From assembly GCA_024614665.1 (NCBI GenBank), contig GCA_024614665.1_4861.1: DNA of 64,000 bases. One strand, given 5' to 3'. A model generated the notes under the pieces. The model had not been told where the DNA came from and ran no database searches. It worked only from the letters and a program-made list of their open reading frames with translations. Positions 23,349 through 30,310 of this stretch are shown here, in pieces (position 1 is the first letter of the stretch; each line of letters begins with the position of its first letter). The translations under genes and the position numbers were made by a program. This DNA comes from a phage.

Positions 23349-23370
23349 ACCCACTCCCGAAGGAGTGGGT
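23349..23370 (-). terminator. UUCG-loop hairpin terminator
   Basis: ACCCACTCC-CGAA-GGAGTGGGT followed directly by a class-1 promoter. Confidence 0.6.
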
Positions 23371-23375
23371 ATAAC

Positions 23376-23972
23376 TCACTGATGATCAACTTTCGGTTCA
23401 GACCACTCGGGGACTGGCGGAAGTTTAATATCAGTTGCGTATTCTGAAGGCACTGCGAGTGTGGTAAAGCCACGACATGCTAAATAATGCTGCATTCGTG
23501 CTGCCTGATTCGGTGTATCGGTGATCACCAAATGGGTCTTACGCATAAGTGCGAGTACCGCCTGTCCTTCTTGCGGCGTAGGTGTACGTGGATGCTTACT
23601 GATAATGCTCATTAACCAGTCACGCGCAATACCACCTACATTACAACTGGCCTCACGCAAATCAACCACACCTTCACCTTCACCCACCACCTGTTTGGTG
23701 GAGTTAGGATAAAAGCGATACGGTGCACGACGACGCTTACGACGTACTTCTGAAATAGCACGTCCAAGTATCATCTGTGCGTGTTTAACACTACAACCGT
23801 CCACCGGTCTACGCATGTTCGTTACTAAACAGGCAATTTCTAACACCTTACCGATTTGATAGCGACGCTTAAAGCCATGACGACTTATGTCTACGTATTC
23901 TGGAAGATTGCCGTTTTTATTGATGTTTGCAACCGTAATCAAAAACAGCGAATCGAGAATCATCTCAGACAT
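23376..23972 (-). CDS. hypothetical protein, about 198 aa
   Basis: ORF; hairpin terminator at 23349..23370. Confidence 0.55.
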   Translation of the reverse strand: MSEMILDSLFLITVANINKNGNLPEYVDISRHGFKRRYQIGKVLEIACLVTNMRRPVDGCSVKHAQMILGRAISEVRRKRRRAPYRFYPNSTKQVVGEGEGVVDLREASCNVGGIARDWLMSIISKHPRTPTPQEGQAVLALMRKTHLVITDTPNQAARMQHYLACRGFTTLAVPSEYATDIKLPPVPEWSEPKVDHQ

Positions 23973-23984
23973 CACAGTTTCCCC

Positions 23985-24356
23985 TTAAAACCCCGCAACG
24001 ACTGCAGACATAAAGTCATGAACGACTTTACGTTGTTCTGCAAGCGGGTAGCCAAATTTAGTAATGTCGTGCATCCACCGAACCCGGTGAGTCCGACCAT
24101 CGTGACTGAATGTGGAGCGCAGTACCAGGAAATAATCCGCACTGACTCGAAAATGTAACGAGCAGCTGCCATGTTTGGCTCGCACGGTCAACTGAATACG
24201 CTTTACACCGCCGCCTAAATACTTAGCGTCGATGTCGACCTGGTCAACCTCCGACACAGCCCGTAAGGCTTGCGCGACGTCTTCCAGGTCCCCGTTCTTG
24301 CTCACATTAGCGCCATGGAGCGCTGCGGTACAGAGTTGAAGCTCTCGATAGAACAT
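23985..24356 (-). CDS. hypothetical protein, 123 aa
   Basis: ORF track; 5' region overlaps the upstream ORF. Confidence 0.45.
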   Translation of the reverse strand: MFYRELQLCTAALHGANVSKNGDLEDVAQALRAVSEVDQVDIDAKYLGGGVKRIQLTVRAKHGSCSLHFRVSADYFLVLRSTFSHDGRTHRVRWMHDITKFGYPLAEQRKVVHDFMSAVVAGF

Positions 24357-24910
24357 CCTTCTAGTCTCCTGTCCCTCCCATAGTTCAAGGGATTTTTATA
24401 ATACCAATCTTCATGCACAGGAGTCACGCGGATATACCGGCTGTAAAACAACAAGTATTTGTAAAAGGTATCAATACTGACGTCTTTGTCCACTGATAAG
24501 AGGTAGTTTAAAGACGGGTCGTCTGGGAACGACACAAAGATACCGGTGAAGTGCGCATCGGCGTAGGGACCATTAAACGGTGTCACTTCACACTTCAGGC
24601 AAGGTAAGCCAACCTGAAACGCGTTCTGTCCTGTCCAGTAGATTCCACGAGTGGTTGCATCGCGTGTTTTCCCATCGGGACGACAAACAATCCCTGCCAT
24701 AAAACTGGAGCGTTGACTTGGGTCAGCCGCGTTTAAGAACCGGATTATTCTGTCTACTGAAAAATATTTTAACGTGCCGGGTGGTATTTGCCAGAACTGT
24801 CCCATCGCACGTACCACCTTCCAACCAGGGCGATTTCTTGCCCCAAAACGCTTTACACAAAAAGTATATCGCGAGCCAGTCTGATGCGGCACGCTGCGGA
24901 CAGCTACCAT
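24302..24910 (-). CDS. hypothetical protein, 202 aa
   Basis: ORF track; abuts stop of the GNAT gene. Confidence 0.5.
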   Translation of the reverse strand: MVAVRSVPHQTGSRYTFCVKRFGARNRPGWKVVRAMGQFWQIPPGTLKYFSVDRIIRFLNAADPSQRSSFMAGIVCRPDGKTRDATTRGIYWTGQNAFQVGLPCLKCEVTPFNGPYADAHFTGIFVSFPDDPSLNYLLSVDKDVSIDTFYKYLLFYSRYIRVTPVHEDWYYKNPLNYGRDRRLEGCSIESFNSVPQRSMALM

Positions 24911-24911
24911 G

Positions 24912-25379
24912 TTAAAGCTCCTTTACCATATCCTGGTATTCAGTTCGAAAACCGAAACGTTCATAAAACGCAATAGCACGGTCGTTATTACCGAGCACGT
25001 TAAGCTGCATCCATGCGCAGCCTTTTGATTTGCCGTAATTTTCTACGGCTTCAATTAACTCATGACCGACGCCTTGAGAGCGAACTGATTCATCTACAAA
25101 GAAGTTATATACCCAGAGGAAACGTTGTCCCTTTTTGGTGTAGCCAAAGGTGATGAAACCAACAGCCACACCACGGTCATCAACGGCGCAAGCGCACAGC
25201 GTACCTTCACCCCAAACCTCCTCCAGTTTTGAGATTTGATTAAACCCTTCACGACCGTTTAAGTCGGCAAGTTTTATTTTCTGATCGTCGTATAACTTGT
25301 TGTGTAGTCCTAACAAGTCCGCGTAGTATTTCTTTCCATACGGAGAGTTGGGCTTGGTGACAAAAACAATTTTCATCAT
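24912..25379 (-). CDS. GNAT family N-acetyltransferase, 155 aa
   Basis: VDESVRSQGVGHELIEAV (motif A) and AIAFYERFGF (motif B). Confidence 0.75.
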   Translation of the reverse strand: MMKIVFVTKPNSPYGKKYYADLLGLHNKLYDDQKIKLADLNGREGFNQISKLEEVWGEGTLCACAVDDRGVAVGFITFGYTKKGQRFLWVYNFFVDESVRSQGVGHELIEAVENYGKSKGCAWMQLNVLGNNDRAIAFYERFGFRTEYQDMVKEL

Positions 25380-26509
25380 TTCACCTCAGCCAACGACTGT
25401 TTTGTCCATTCCATTAGACCCTCCGCCACACGTACCAATGCTGTGGTAAATGCGTCTTCCATCGCCATTGCATTGCGGTAGCGCAAAGTGGCTTCTTTCA
25501 GCTCATCCCCTTCCAGGTTCTTAAGCTCGGACTTCATCGCTTCCACTTCTTCGTAGATACCAGTGTAGCCTACAACACGGTTCTTTGTTCCGCGCGCAGC
25601 AATAGATTTGATAAGTGCTTCCACAGCCTCTATTGCTTTCCCACACTGATGCATATCCAGCGATTTAATGGTTTCACCATAATCGCCATCACGCGCAATT
25701 GCCCAACTGATCTTACCATTATGGTGCTCAACCACAACGATATTTCCAGGAACAGGAAAAGCTTCCACCTTTTTAAAGGGATCGATGATGCCAAGCAGTC
25801 CAGCGGCACGCTTAACTGCCCAGTTTGTGGACTTGCTGATTTGTTTTAAGCCCGGCCCTTCGAATGCTTTGCTTTTCTTCAGAGCAGTGCGTGTGTAAAC
25901 CGTGTACTTTTGCACGACGCCTTCGTACGCATTTGTTTGTTTAGAGAACTGAACACACGCTTCAAAATCGGGTCTATCTTCAAAACAAATTTTAGACGTC
26001 CAGCTGCTCGTGTGAACGTCAACTGCAGCGAGTGTTTTGTGGTCATCTAGCAGCGACATTCGCGTTTTAAGCTTATTGAGCTTACGTTCCATGAAAGCAG
26101 CTTTCGAAGTTATTTCTTTCAAATGGTCGGCTTGTTCTTTCGCTAGCGCTTCCGCGAAATCGTAAAAGCGTAATGCGAGCTTTTTCGAAAGTTTACCCGC
26201 GCCCTTTGCGGTTGCACCTAGTCCAGCACCCACTAGCTTTCCAGCGCCTTTAACAGCTTTCGCAGTAATGCGCCCTGCTGCGCGATGGATGCCAGCCCGC
26301 GGGTCGGTATCAGTCATAAACTGAGCACGCTCCATCGCTTCACGCGATTCACGAGCAACCAACATATCTTCACCGTCGTCGGTTAAGCACCAACGCTGAC
26401 GAATCGCGCAAACCGCAGGGAAGTCGGGCTTAACTCCCAGACCTTCGAGTGCGACCAGGCGATCGTAGTCGTCAGTCAGGACTTCTAAATCTAAATCGAG
26501 CGTCGACAT
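25376..26509 (-). CDS. hypothetical protein, 377 aa
   Basis: ORF track; ATGA overlap with the GNAT gene. Confidence 0.55.
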   Translation of the reverse strand: MSTLDLDLEVLTDDYDRLVALEGLGVKPDFPAVCAIRQRWCLTDDGEDMLVARESREAMERAQFMTDTDPRAGIHRAAGRITAKAVKGAGKLVGAGLGATAKGAGKLSKKLALRFYDFAEALAKEQADHLKEITSKAAFMERKLNKLKTRMSLLDDHKTLAAVDVHTSSWTSKICFEDRPDFEACVQFSKQTNAYEGVVQKYTVYTRTALKKSKAFEGPGLKQISKSTNWAVKRAAGLLGIIDPFKKVEAFPVPGNIVVVEHHNGKISWAIARDGDYGETIKSLDMHQCGKAIEAVEALIKSIAARGTKNRVVGYTGIYEEVEAMKSELKNLEGDELKEATLRYRNAMAMEDAFTTALVRVAEGLMEWTKQSLAEVK

Positions 26510-26519
26510 CCCCTGCTCC

Positions 26520-26792
26520 TTATATCTGCGTCAAAGTATAGTAATAGTTGCGATGTGGCCAGCGAACACACAAGGCAAATATCTCTCCCGTATCCGGTGT
26601 GGTGTAGACCGTCTGAATTGGGTCATTTTCTTGTGGCGCGACTTTCGAATCAAAACCGTGACGTTCCAGGTAATCGAAAAACTCATCTTCGGTGCCTGGG
26701 AACAGACGAAGGCTGGTCACCTTCTTAATGGGTTTTGACGGCGTAGGGAAGAGCGCTTCCCACAAACGACGTGCTAAACTGGTAGTTTGCAT
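26520..26792 (-). CDS. hypothetical protein, 90 aa
   Basis: ORF track. Confidence 0.45.
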   Translation of the reverse strand: MQTTSLARRLWEALFPTPSKPIKKVTSLRLFPGTEDEFFDYLERHGFDSKVAPQENDPIQTVYTTPDTGEIFALCVRWPHRNYYYTLTQI

Positions 26793-26822: not shown

Positions 26823-27422
26823 TCATAATAAGCACAAGCTCTCAAGCCACAGATGTCCTTCAAGCGCATGGTGGTAACAAGGAATACCACACTGCTTAGC
26901 GTATTTCACGCCCATGGCAGTACCGCCGGTCGGATTACCTTGTTTATCTAAAGGCGCAGAGTAATAGACTGCGTCTACAGGCGTTGCTAAATCATCGCCC
27001 ATAATTATATTCAGATTACGCCCGTGAAGCGCCCAGGCGAACTCCTGGAGCTTTTCTGGCGCGGGATGAAGCTTACCCACTATCTCACGATAGCGGTCGT
27101 CCTGAGGGATTACACGGAACTCTACGTTGGGGTTCTGTTTCTTGAGCCAAAGCTTTTTCTCATCGGGTAAATAGCAGATGAACTCGTCATCCCACACCAC
27201 TTTCTTGCCAGTGTTCTGGTCTATTGTATTCGCCCACTGTCGGGCAAATCGGAATTGCAATTGGTCTGGGCCACACCAGCAGCCGCCAGAAGAAAAATGA
27301 ATCGTGTAGCCTTTGGCGTGCAGCGCATTAAACCCACGTAACAATCGCATGTACATTTCAGACATGGTATCTTCATCAGTCTTCCGAGAACCGATTACCG
27401 CAATTTTATAAATCTTTTTCAT
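26823..27422 (-). CDS. DprA/Smf-like (SLOG superfamily) Rossmann-fold protein, 199 aa
   Basis: IAVIGSR ... SSGG ... GPDQ arrangement resembles the DprA/LOG nucleotide-binding core. Confidence 0.45.
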   Translation of the reverse strand: MKKIYKIAVIGSRKTDEDTMSEMYMRLLRGFNALHAKGYTIHFSSGGCWCGPDQLQFRFARQWANTIDQNTGKKVVWDDEFICYLPDEKKLWLKKQNPNVEFRVIPQDDRYREIVGKLHPAPEKLQEFAWALHGRNLNIIMGDDLATPVDAVYYSAPLDKQGNPTGGTAMGVKYAKQCGIPCYHHALEGHLWLESLCLL

Positions 27423-27462
27423 GGACTTACCTCCTATACGGAGTGGACGATTCGTAAGAAAA

Positions 27463-27489
27463 AATAAATACCTACCCTCGCTAAACGGG
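27463..27489 (-). terminator. hairpin terminator
   Basis: CTACCCTCGC-TAAACG-GGCGAGGGTAG then U-run; downstream of 27503..28120. Confidence 0.55.
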
Positions 27490-27502
27490 CGAGGGTAGTG
27501 TC

Positions 27503-28120: not shown

Positions 28121-28181
28121 GCCTCGCTCCTGGTATTTGATTAAGGGGGGTCATAATACTTCACAGGAAAATAATAAACAG

Positions 28182-28203
28182 TATAGGGGCCGAAGCCCCT
28201 ATA
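28182..28203 (-). terminator. UUCG-loop hairpin terminator
   Basis: TATAGGGGC-CGAA-GCCCCTATA downstream of the secreted protein gene. Confidence 0.55.
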
Positions 28204-28211
28204 CGCTGTGT

Positions 28212-29097: not shown

Positions 29098-29583
29098 TTA
29101 GACGAATTGACCTTCTGCCATCGAAAGAAAAATGGGAACGCTTTCAGCGTAATGAGTTAAAAGCTTTTCCTCCGGTGGCGTGTGTGACGAAATAACATTG
29201 TAGTTCGTCATACGAAAATACCGTTGGCCGTCAGCAGCAATATACCATCGGTCAATCTGGAAGCCTTGTTGGTGAAAGAATCCCAGCGCAGGAATATTAG
29301 TCGGGTGAACACGACAGCTGATGTGTTTACGATCGGAGTTCTGTTGAAGGTACTTAAGCATAAATCTACCGACGCCGCCGCGTCGCGATTCCTCGGGCAC
29401 AACCATATAGACCAAATGGCCAGGTTCCCATGCCATGATTCCCCGCACGATATCATCCTCAACAAACATCGTGAGTTTAATAGGCTCCTCACGAATACTG
29501 TTTAAGTCGCGTACCCATTCAACCAGTTCAGGATAAACGTTCGCAGGAATCTTATCCTCGACCACATTAATAACAAGCATCAC
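29098..29583 (-). CDS. GNAT family N-acetyltransferase, 161 aa
   Basis: VPEESRRGGVGRFMLKYL (motif A) and ALGFFHQQGF. Confidence 0.7.
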   Translation of the reverse strand: MMLVINVVEDKIPANVYPELVEWVRDLNSIREEPIKLTMFVEDDIVRGIMAWEPGHLVYMVVPEESRRGGVGRFMLKYLQQNSDRKHISCRVHPTNIPALGFFHQQGFQIDRWYIAADGQRYFRMTNYNVISSHTPPEEKLLTHYAESVPIFLSMAEGQFV

Positions 29584-30282: not shown

Positions 30283-30310
30283 GCCTCTTCTCCCAAAGGA
30301 GAAGAGGGCT
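30283..30310 (-). terminator. hairpin terminator
   Basis: GCCTCTTCTCC-CAAA-GGAGAAGAGGGC with U-run; downstream of 30314..30886. Confidence 0.6.

What the first reader, a model, noticed from the sequence alone, without database searches (positions are those of the whole stretch)
26823..27422. DprA/SLOG-like Rossmann protein in an early gene block
The IAVIGSR ... SSGG ... GPDQ arrangement matches the nucleotide-binding core of DprA/LOG-type proteins. In phages such domains could bind single-stranded DNA or sequester nucleotide-derived signalling molecules. Neighbours are unknowns and a GNAT.
Basis: partly seen in the sequence, partly recalled or inferred. Interest (0 to 1): 0.4.

Follow-up and report, generated by a model that had tools for sequence, protein, structure and literature searches.

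The report
Phage DprA-like SLOG protein (SPN3US gp92)
This is a real gene for a small DprA-like nucleotide-binding protein that is common in large phages and already annotated; nobody has tested what it does, and it probably grips single-stranded DNA or RNA rather than soaking up immune signals.

The parts
26823..27422 (-). CDS, 199 aa: single-domain DprA-like SLOG Rossmannoid protein, orthologue of SPN3US gp92 (SPN3US_0092 / YP_009153386.1)
27384..27392 (-). Codons G11-S12-R13: loop after strand 1. R13 aligns with the first ssDNA-binding Arg of DprA (E. coli R116; H. pylori R52).
   Evidence: Conservation. Alignment to solved DprA chains and to the DprA profile. Arg triad taken from PMC12961424.
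27264..27290 (-). Codons S45-G46-G47-C-W-C-G51-P52-D53: the SGG...GxD motif at strand 2 / helix 2, the SLOG ligand-binding signature (DprA 'SGLA.GID')
   Evidence: The GxD/E signature of the YpsA clade is described in PMC6459960.
27057..27068 (-). Codons H119-P-A-P122: family-specific 'HPAx' motif with no counterpart in DprA
   Evidence: H119 is at least 90% conserved in 79 standalone relatives and invariant in 52 fused relatives. In the hhalign alignment it falls at the edge of a segment where DprA carries extra residues.
27015..27029 (-). Codons L132-H133-G-R135-N136: 'LHxRN' helix. R135-N136 are invariant, and R135 aligns with the second DprA triad Arg (E. coli R211). H133 aligns with a Pro in DprA.
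26919..26927 (-). Codons G166-G167-T168: invariant 'GGT' loop (DprA 'SGS'; LOG 'PGGxGT')
26904..26906 (-). Codon K173: aligns with the third DprA triad Arg (E. coli R238) and, by motif register, with the catalytic-Glu position of the LOG motif. It is variable in the family.
27430..27435 (-). Shine-Dalgarno AGGAGG, 7 nt upstream of the ATG
   Evidence: Read directly from the sequence
27472..27498 (-). Intrinsic-terminator-like hairpin (10 bp stem, 7 G-C pairs, followed by a T-run) ending the upstream unit. The gene therefore heads a new unit.
23376..26792 (-). Probable co-transcribed downstream genes (orthologues of SPN3US gp93-gp98). They include the head protein gp94 (25376-26509) and a GNAT (24912-25379). 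No strong terminator occurs before the hairpin at about 23350-23369.
   Evidence: gp94 peptides were found in virions (PMC10052503).

Best explanation
The gene encodes a stand-alone, single-domain member of the phage 'DprA-like' branch of the SLOG Rossmannoid superfamily (PHROG 768, Phi92_gp047-like). I propose that it is a non-catalytic binder of single-stranded nucleic acid. In this model the backbone phosphates of ssDNA, or possibly ssRNA, sit in the ancestral SLOG nucleotide pocket. That pocket is formed by the G11-S12-R13 loop, the S45-G46-G47...G51-x-D53 loop, the L-H133-x-R135-N136 helix and the G166-G167-T168 loop, the same arrangement DprA and ShosA use to hold ssDNA. As a free protein it would coat or mark ssDNA intermediates of phage replication, repair or recombination, and either protect them or hand them to other enzymes. 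In fused relatives the same module would deliver helicase, NADAR, Macro or AlkB-type domains to ssDNA. What is shown: the fold, homology to DprA, conservation of the pocket residues, and the set of fusion partners. What is inferred: that the ligand is a nucleic acid, that the protein is non-catalytic, and its role in infection.
Against: There are no experimental data for any member of the family. R13 and R135 would bind the phosphate of a mononucleotide or of ADP-ribose just as well, so the triad does not discriminate between ligands. The nearly invariant H119, H133 and D53 look more like a small-molecule or catalytic pocket than a DNA-binding surface, and H133 is Pro in DprA. The third triad position is not conserved. 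The protein lacks DprA's SAM and winged-helix domains. Net charge is unremarkable (pI 8.2; family median 7.8). Ligase proximity across 50 dereplicated loci is about what chance would give. NAD-salvage and ADPr genes are also occasional neighbours. Iyer et al. 2022 read the same fusions as evidence for ADPr-signal processing.
Confidence: 0.4

Rival explanations
1. Counter-defence small-ligand protein. The SLOG pocket binds, and perhaps cleaves at the ribosyl-base bond, a soluble NAD+/ADP-ribose-derived immune signal or toxin such as cADPR isomers or ADPr-1''P. The protein would then act as a sponge or degrading enzyme against Thoeris-like and related systems. This is the published prediction for viral SLOG domains and the first reader's second suggestion.
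Against: Sequence and fold are closer to the ssDNA binders DprA and ShosA than to ThsA-SLOG, YpsA or YAcAr. NADAR and DarG-type Macro domains are now known to act on ADP-ribosylated ssDNA, so these fusions no longer point specifically to soluble signals. No known sponge family is homologous to it, and no experimental report exists. In this phage there is no NAD/ADPr gene nearby. If the gene is not early, it is poorly timed for intercepting immune signals.
Confidence: 0.3
2. A true functional DprA: a recombination mediator that dimerises, binds ssDNA and loads a RecA/UvsX-type recombinase, as the RefSeq and PHROG product name implies.
For: DprA is the nearest family. Iyer et al. 2021 suggested that jumbo-phage DprA/Smf could be an additional ssDNA-binding protein in phages lacking UvsY (PMC7824862). 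SPN3US encodes SbcD- and SMC-like recombination nucleases.
Against: There is no Pfam PF02481 hit for this protein. It lacks the SAM and WH domains present in canonical DprA (PF25317 + PF02481 + PF17782). No recombinase is annotated in SPN3US. No recombination gene is a conserved neighbour in 50 dereplicated loci. The residues for dimerisation and RecA contact could not be mapped.
Confidence: 0.1
3. LOG-type enzyme: a nucleotide phosphoribohydrolase that releases a free base from AMP or a modified nucleotide.
Confidence: 0.05

Closest known systems
Phage 'DprA-like' proteins (PHROG 768; Phi92_gp047-like; the viral SLOG domains of Iyer et al. 2021/2022)
   Same: Full-length HMM match, E=1.3e-47. 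The protein is 100% identical to SPLA5c's, and the region is 98% identical in DNA to SPN3US, whose gp92 carries this product name in RefSeq. It shares the motifs GSR / SGG.G.D / HPA / LH.RN / GGT and forms the same BFVD structural cluster (TM 0.65-0.75). The fusion repertoire matches the published one.
   Different: The jumbo-phage subgroup has 'SGGCW[K/C]GPDQ' in place of 'SGGA.GAD'. It also has a 20-30-residue insertion after helix 2, and 'YLPD[D/E]KK' in place of 'YLPW.GF' after strand 3.
Bacterial DprA/Smf (PF02481), the competence recombination mediator
   Different: Identity is only 15-18%, and this protein has no direct Pfam hit. It has no SAM or winged-helix domain. It has a family-specific HPA motif, and His replaces DprA's Pro before the RN motif. 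A strand segment of DprA ('GALVSE') has no counterpart.
ShosA, the DprA-like antitoxin of the ShosTA defence system (PDB 8ZVA)
   Different: ShosA has an N-terminal SAM domain and an extra C-terminal helix, forms a dimer, binds RecA, and is paired with the toxin ShosT. No ShosT-like gene lies near this gene.
ThsA SLOG domain (Thoeris, 3'cADPR sensor), YpsA and YAcAr/DUF2493
   Different: Structural similarity to ThsA-SLOG is lower, and viral YAcAr proteins match only at TM about 0.4-0.47. Only 3 of 79 relatives touch the YAcAr model and none touches the YpsA model.

Membership tests
SLOG (SMF/DprA-LOG) Rossmannoid superfamily | Three-layer alpha/beta Rossmannoid fold that superposes on solved SLOG members | tested here: met
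SLOG (SMF/DprA-LOG) Rossmannoid superfamily | Conserved polar, Gly-rich loop after strand 1, plus the GxD/E motif at helix 2 and a GG[T/S] loop before the last helices | tested here: met
   G11-S12-R13, G51-P52-D53 and G166-G167-T168 are conserved at 90-100% in 79 relatives. The GxD/E signature is described in PMC6459960.
Phage DprA-like family (PHROG 768) | Full-length match to the family HMM | tested here: met
   E=1.3e-47, 162.8 bits, residues 4-189 against profile positions 3-170 of 191.
Canonical DprA/Smf | Match to Pfam PF02481 (DNA_processg_A) | tested here: not met
   No Pfam family at E<=1 for this protein. The link is only transitive: 30 of 79 relatives hit PF02481 at E<=0.01, and hhalign to a DprA alignment gives 87.6%.
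Canonical DprA/Smf | Flanking SAM (PF25317) and winged-helix (PF17782) domains | tested here: not met
   The protein is a 199-aa single domain. Enterobacterial DprA carries PF25317 + PF02481 + PF17782.
Canonical DprA/Smf | ssDNA-binding Arg triad (H. pylori R52/R143/R170; ShosA R139/R234/R261) | tested here: inconclusive
   R13 and R135 align to the first two triad Args and are conserved or invariant. The third position is K173 here and is variable in the family. The same residues could bind any phosphate.
Canonical DprA/Smf | Dimerisation, ssDNA binding and RecA loading | not testable with these tools
   These need biochemistry. No recombinase is annotated in the SPN3US genome.
LOG phosphoribohydrolases | PGGxGTxxE motif with a catalytic Glu; Pfam Lysine_decarbox match | tested here: not met
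   The loop reads T-G-G-T-A-M-G-V-K173, with no Glu, and the position varies in the family. No LOG Pfam hit in this protein or in 79 relatives. The motif definition is from established knowledge, recalled from memory.
YAcAr / DUF2493 (PF10686) and YpsA (PF06908) SLOG families | Match to the family HMM or a close structural cluster | tested here: not met
   No hit for this protein. YAcAr is hit by 3 of 79 relatives and YpsA by none. Viral YAcAr models match at TM 0.40-0.47, against 0.65-0.75 for phage DprA-like proteins.
ThsA-type SLOG cADPR sensors / phage signal sponges | Binding of cADPR isomers or other immune nucleotides | not testable with these tools

The most novel reading that the evidence does not exclude
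The phage DprA-like SLOG module might be a dedicated reader of damaged or ADP-ribosylated single-stranded DNA. As a free protein it would shield phage ssDNA from, or flag it for repair after, DarT-type ssDNA ADP-ribosylation and similar base-targeting defences. When fused, it would deliver NADAR, Macro, AlkB or helicase activities to the lesion. A variant of this idea is that it mimics the DprA-like antitoxin ShosA to keep ShosT silent. Either way it would be a new class of anti-defence factor acting on DNA lesions rather than on soluble signals.
Probability: 0.12. Interest if true: 0.6.

Novelty: already known. Interest (0 to 1): 0.2.

Why it matters
As it stands this is an ordinary, already annotated accessory gene of SPN3US-like jumbo phages, and its family has been catalogued twice by comparative genomics. 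The open point is functional. The family is large (about 1,840 representative clusters at 50% identity, found across many groups of large phages) and nobody has tested any member. The product name 'recombination mediator' and the published prediction 'ADPr-signal processing' cannot both be right for the same pocket. A simple binding experiment would settle which is correct, fix a widely propagated annotation, and might reveal either a new ssDNA-protection factor or a new counter-defence factor.

Tried and rejected
(1) Direct Pfam, NCBIfam and PADLOC scans and PDB sequence searches with the single protein or its close-relative profile found nothing. Only the broader 79-sequence profile reached DprA.

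(2) Single-sequence hhalign to E. coli DprA aligned only the N-terminal 53 residues with any confidence. A 14-sequence DprA alignment was needed. The costly homologue search for DprA listed only enterobacterial sequences of at least 68% identity, so the DprA profile is shallow.

(3) I looked for a conserved gene partner. Ligase adjacency in T4-like and T5-like phages looked promising. Across 80 IMG/VR loci (50 dereplicated clusters), however, no neighbour family recurs in more than 4 clusters, and ligases occur at roughly the rate a 12-kb window would give by chance. I rejected it as a general association.

(4) Contigs encoding intermediate or fused relatives were too short to give context.

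(5) A plasmid search found only 3 hits, so this is not a plasmid leading-region family.

(6) Charge and pI as a discriminator between a DNA and a small ligand were uninformative.

(7) The GTCCACT element upstream of the gene is at chance frequency. Sigma-70-like promoter hits are at background.

(8) I considered a virion-packaged or injected role, because of the neighbouring head-protein gene and the giant fused proteins. gp92 is not mentioned in the SPN3US virion proteome papers or in the one held supplement.

The first search for related loci attempt failed because the alignment was too diverse.

(10) An Rfam scan of the window found nothing.

Full report
NUMBERING. Residues are numbered from Met1 of the 199-aa product. 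Alignments A1/A2 and the structure model were built without Met1, so their printed numbers are one lower (for example, their R12 is R13 here).

1. THE OBSERVATION. The ORF listing and translate show a 199-aa ORF at exactly 26823..27422, on the minus strand. It reads MKKIYKIAVIGSRKT...HFSSGGCWCGPDQLQF...LHPAPEKL...LHGRNLNIIMG...PTGGTAMGVKYA. The quoted motifs are therefore present and in the stated order. A strong AGGAGG ribosome-binding site lies 7 nt before the ATG (27430-27435). The overlapping plus-strand ORFs are short (40-48 aa) and were not examined further.

2. WHERE THE WINDOW COMES FROM. The 6.5 kb around the gene is 98% identical to Salmonella jumbo phage SPN3US (Seoulvirus, a phiKZ-like phage) and its relatives. 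The product is 100% identical to that of phage SPLA5c. The orthologue is SPN3US_0092 (gp92). GenBank calls it 'hypothetical protein', and RefSeq and PHROG-based annotations call it 'DprA-like DNA recombination-mediator protein'.

3. WHAT THE PROTEIN IS. Pfam, NCBIfam and PADLOC give no hit even at permissive thresholds. PDB sequence searches with the protein or its 23 close relatives also give nothing. PHROG 768 ('DprA-like') matches over the full length at E=1.3e-47. An AlphaFold2 model built on 23 homologues is confident (pLDDT 94, pTM 0.90) and is a Rossmann-type alpha/beta domain.

An exhaustive HMM search of 1.84 billion cluster representatives finds 1,842 relatives at E<=1e-3 and 203 at E<=1e-10. 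A tblastn search finds the family in 718 phage records from many lineages of large virulent phages. Only 3 plasmid records have it.

The family motifs are GIGSR.T, LRSGGA.GAD.AF, HPA(W/P)..L, LH.RN..QILG and GGT.TAV..A...IP. R135, N136, G166, G167 and T168 are invariant. G11, S12, R13, S45, G46, G51, D53, H119 and H133 are at least 90% conserved in 79 standalone relatives.

4. RELATION TO DprA. Homology to DprA is real but remote. Thirty of 79 standalone relatives and 5 of 52 fused relatives hit Pfam DNA_processg_A, against 4 for LDcluster4, 3 for YAcAr and none for YpsA or LOG. The 79-sequence profile reaches solved DprA chains at E about 1e-4, although only over the first 50 or so residues.

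I built a DprA alignment from enterobacterial sequences and compared profiles. hhalign gives 87.6% probability, E=3.5e-6, over 140 columns covering the whole Rossmann domain. In that alignment R13, R135 and K173 fall on E. coli DprA R116, R211 and R238. These residues are spaced 95 and 27 apart. That is exactly the spacing of the experimentally defined ssDNA-binding residues of ShosA (R139, R234, R261), and the second spacing matches H. pylori DprA (R52, R143, R170) (PMC12961424). The alignment to the H. pylori chain also confirms R13 = R52.

So two triad arginines are conserved and the third is a lysine here, but that position varies in the family. The differences from DprA are as follows. 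The protein has no SAM or winged-helix domain, whereas canonical DprA is PF25317 + PF02481 + PF17782. The HPA motif is family-specific. His133 stands where DprA has Pro. The jumbo-phage subgroup carries a 20-30-residue insertion after helix 2. By motif register, K173 also occupies the position of the catalytic Glu of the LOG 'PGGxGTxxE' motif (motif recalled from established knowledge). This argues against LOG-type hydrolysis.

5. WHAT IS ALREADY PUBLISHED. Iyer et al. [quoted passage not shown] Iyer et al. 2022 surveyed viral SLOG domains. They are present in 31% of jumbo phages and are typically stand-alone. Some are fused to Macro, NADAR or DUF4326, and sporadically to HTH, HNH, exonuclease, SF1 helicase or guanylate kinase. 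The authors proposed that these domains sense or degrade cADPR-like signals, and stated that they are experimentally uncharacterised (PMC9503650).

My own survey of 52 multi-domain relatives reproduces that repertoire: SF1/Pif1-type helicase 6, NADAR 5, AlkB-like 2OG-Fe(II) oxygenase 2, DUF7831 2, and DUF4326, Macro, HTH and FtsK-gamma 1 each. I found no experimental study of any phage member.

6. GENOMIC CONTEXT. In this phage the neighbours are uninformative. gp91 and gp93 are unknowns, gp94 is a phiKZ-type internal head protein, and gp88 and gp95 are GNATs. The SPN3US annotation lists no ligase, recombinase, NADAR or NAD-salvage gene. Its single Macro-domain gene is about 86 kb away.

In other lineages the homologue overlaps the end of RNA ligase 2 (T4-like Jiaodavirus and Gelderlandvirus). 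In T5-like My1 it overlaps the start of NAD-dependent DNA ligase. In PAK_P5 it lies between an ATP-dependent DNA ligase and a helicase. In Otagovirus VCM it lies beside a Macro protein and a nicotinate phosphoribosyltransferase.

To test generality I fetched 80 IMG/VR loci, called ORFs, dereplicated to 50 SLOG clusters and clustered the neighbours. No neighbour family recurs in more than 4 clusters. ATP-dependent ligase appears in 5 clusters, NAD-dependent ligase in 1, NAPRT in 3, Macro in 2 and NADAR in 2. A 12-kb window covers about a tenth of such genomes, so the ligase rate is near chance (my estimate). The NAD/ADPr genes may be mildly enriched, but the numbers are small. The protein therefore behaves as a free-standing module, and the fusions are the best functional clue.

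7. MECHANISM. The pocket residues say that a phosphate-bearing nucleotide moiety is bound. They cannot by themselves tell a polymer from a small molecule.

Two considerations tip me towards single-stranded nucleic acid. First, the nearest relatives by both sequence and structure are DprA and ShosA, which bind ssDNA through the same two arginines. Second, since the 2022 survey, NADAR has been shown to hydrolyse ADP-ribosyl-guanine on ssDNA, and DarG-type Macro does the same for thymidine (PMC11543638). AlkB-type dioxygenases and SF1 helicases also work on single strands (established knowledge). Every catalytic partner of this domain thus has a single-stranded nucleic-acid substrate, which an ssDNA-targeting module explains economically.

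Several points count against this. The conserved His119, His133 and Asp53 look like a small-ligand or catalytic site. The third triad residue is variable. NAD-related neighbours do occur.

I therefore give 0.4 to 'non-catalytic ss-nucleic-acid binder', 0.3 to 'binder or degrader of ADPr-derived small molecules', 0.1 to 'true recombinase-loading DprA' and 0.05 to 'LOG-type hydrolase'. The remainder is left open.

8. 'EARLY GENE BLOCK'. The window is one long co-directional block. It mixes virion genes (major head protein, internal head proteins, tail proteins) with polymerase, DnaB-like helicase, DHFR, thymidylate kinase and many unknowns. Position alone therefore says nothing about timing.

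I noticed a very conserved intergenic element, TTTCAGATA[T/G]AT[A/G]TTA[C/T]...GTGA. The core AGATAKATRTTAY occurs 9 times, always on the coding strand, against 0.44 expected. It usually sits just after a terminator hairpin. This fits the highly conserved AT-rich early-promoter class described for phiKZ and 201phi2-1 (PMC11512511). That it shares a 'TATATTAC' core with phiKZ is my recollection, not verified.

None of the nine copies lies between 23.3 and 43.2 kb. The nearest one upstream of this gene is 15.7 kb away, with three terminator-like hairpins in between (27498-27472, 28204-28181, 30307-30284). The gene follows the first of these hairpins directly. No strong terminator intervenes before the hairpin at about 23350-23369, so it heads a unit with the orthologues of gp93-gp98. 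That unit includes gp94, whose peptides are found in virions (PMC10052503). This points to middle or late rather than early expression, but no transcript data exist for this phage.

9. VERDICT. The finding is real and correctly classified at superfamily level. It is already annotated and already discussed in the comparative-genomics literature, and this copy is essentially identical to known phages. It is ordinary. The only unresolved and mildly interesting point is that the function of this very widespread phage family has never been tested, and the propagated product name may be wrong.

Noticed in passing
window minus strand: 2682, 6775, 15511, 21824, 23319, 43167, 43972, 51044, 59547 (13-mer starts): A highly conserved intergenic element, TTTCAGATA[T/G]AT[A/G]TTA[C/T]..GTGA, is present. 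Its core AGATAKATRTTAY occurs 9 times, all on the coding strand, against 0.44 expected. It usually sits just after a terminator hairpin and about 60-70 nt before a start codon. It is probably the AT-rich early (virion RNA polymerase) promoter class of phiKZ-like phages, and would define the early transcription units of this phage.
   Followed up: partly
window 27472-27498, 28181-28204, 30284-30307, about 23350-23369 (minus strand): A series of strong GC-rich hairpin terminators cuts the gp87-gp98 region into short units. The one at 28181-28204 is also scored on the plus strand, so it may work in both directions.
   Followed up: partly
L003 2500-4055; L005 2383-3932; L007 3546-5022: In T4-like Jiaodavirus and Gelderlandvirus phages the DprA-like gene overlaps the 3' end of RNA ligase 2 (rnlB). 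In T5-like phage My1 it overlaps the 5' end of the NAD-dependent DNA ligase A subunit. This suggests lineage-specific translational coupling to nick-sealing enzymes. It does not generalise across 50 dereplicated viral loci.
   Followed up: yes
L097 (56-20486) and L098 (2-13345), metagenome contigs: Relatives of this domain sit at the C-terminal end of giant proteins of 4,000-5,200 aa. These lie in arrays of back-to-back giant ORFs (947, 4296 and >1566 aa; >1009, 1145, 1136 and >1159 aa) whose stops and starts overlap by one base. The two giant proteins scanned (4,146 and 4,296 aa) have no Pfam hit at all. They may be polyvalent or injected proteins of huge phages or mobile elements.
   Followed up: partly
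public records matching window 26823-27422: Several SPFM-series Salmonella phage genomes carry this gene broken into frameshifted fragments (proteins P0026-P0032; SPFM14 matches in 5 pieces at 95% identity). This looks like assembly or sequencing error rather than biology.
   Followed up: no
NZ_CP134650.1 171198-171746 (hit H81); proteins P0003, P0031: A 222-kb Enterobacter ludwigii 'plasmid' encodes a 58%-identical homologue. Contigs of about 240 kb deposited as E. coli or Salmonella proteins carry near-identical copies. These are probably jumbo-phage genomes or pseudolysogens filed as bacterial replicons.
   Followed up: no
window 24912-25379, 29098-29583; also SPN3US 95846-96844 and 172536-173024: The phage carries at least four GNAT-family acetyltransferase genes, two of them within 3 kb of this gene. 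Their substrates are unknown.
   Followed up: no
L004 686-7501 (Pseudomonas phage VCM): In this Otagovirus the DprA-like gene lies in a cluster with nicotinate phosphoribosyltransferase, a Macro-domain protein, TelA, a vWA protein and TerC. This looks like an NAD/ADPr plus tellurite-resistance-like module.
   Followed up: no
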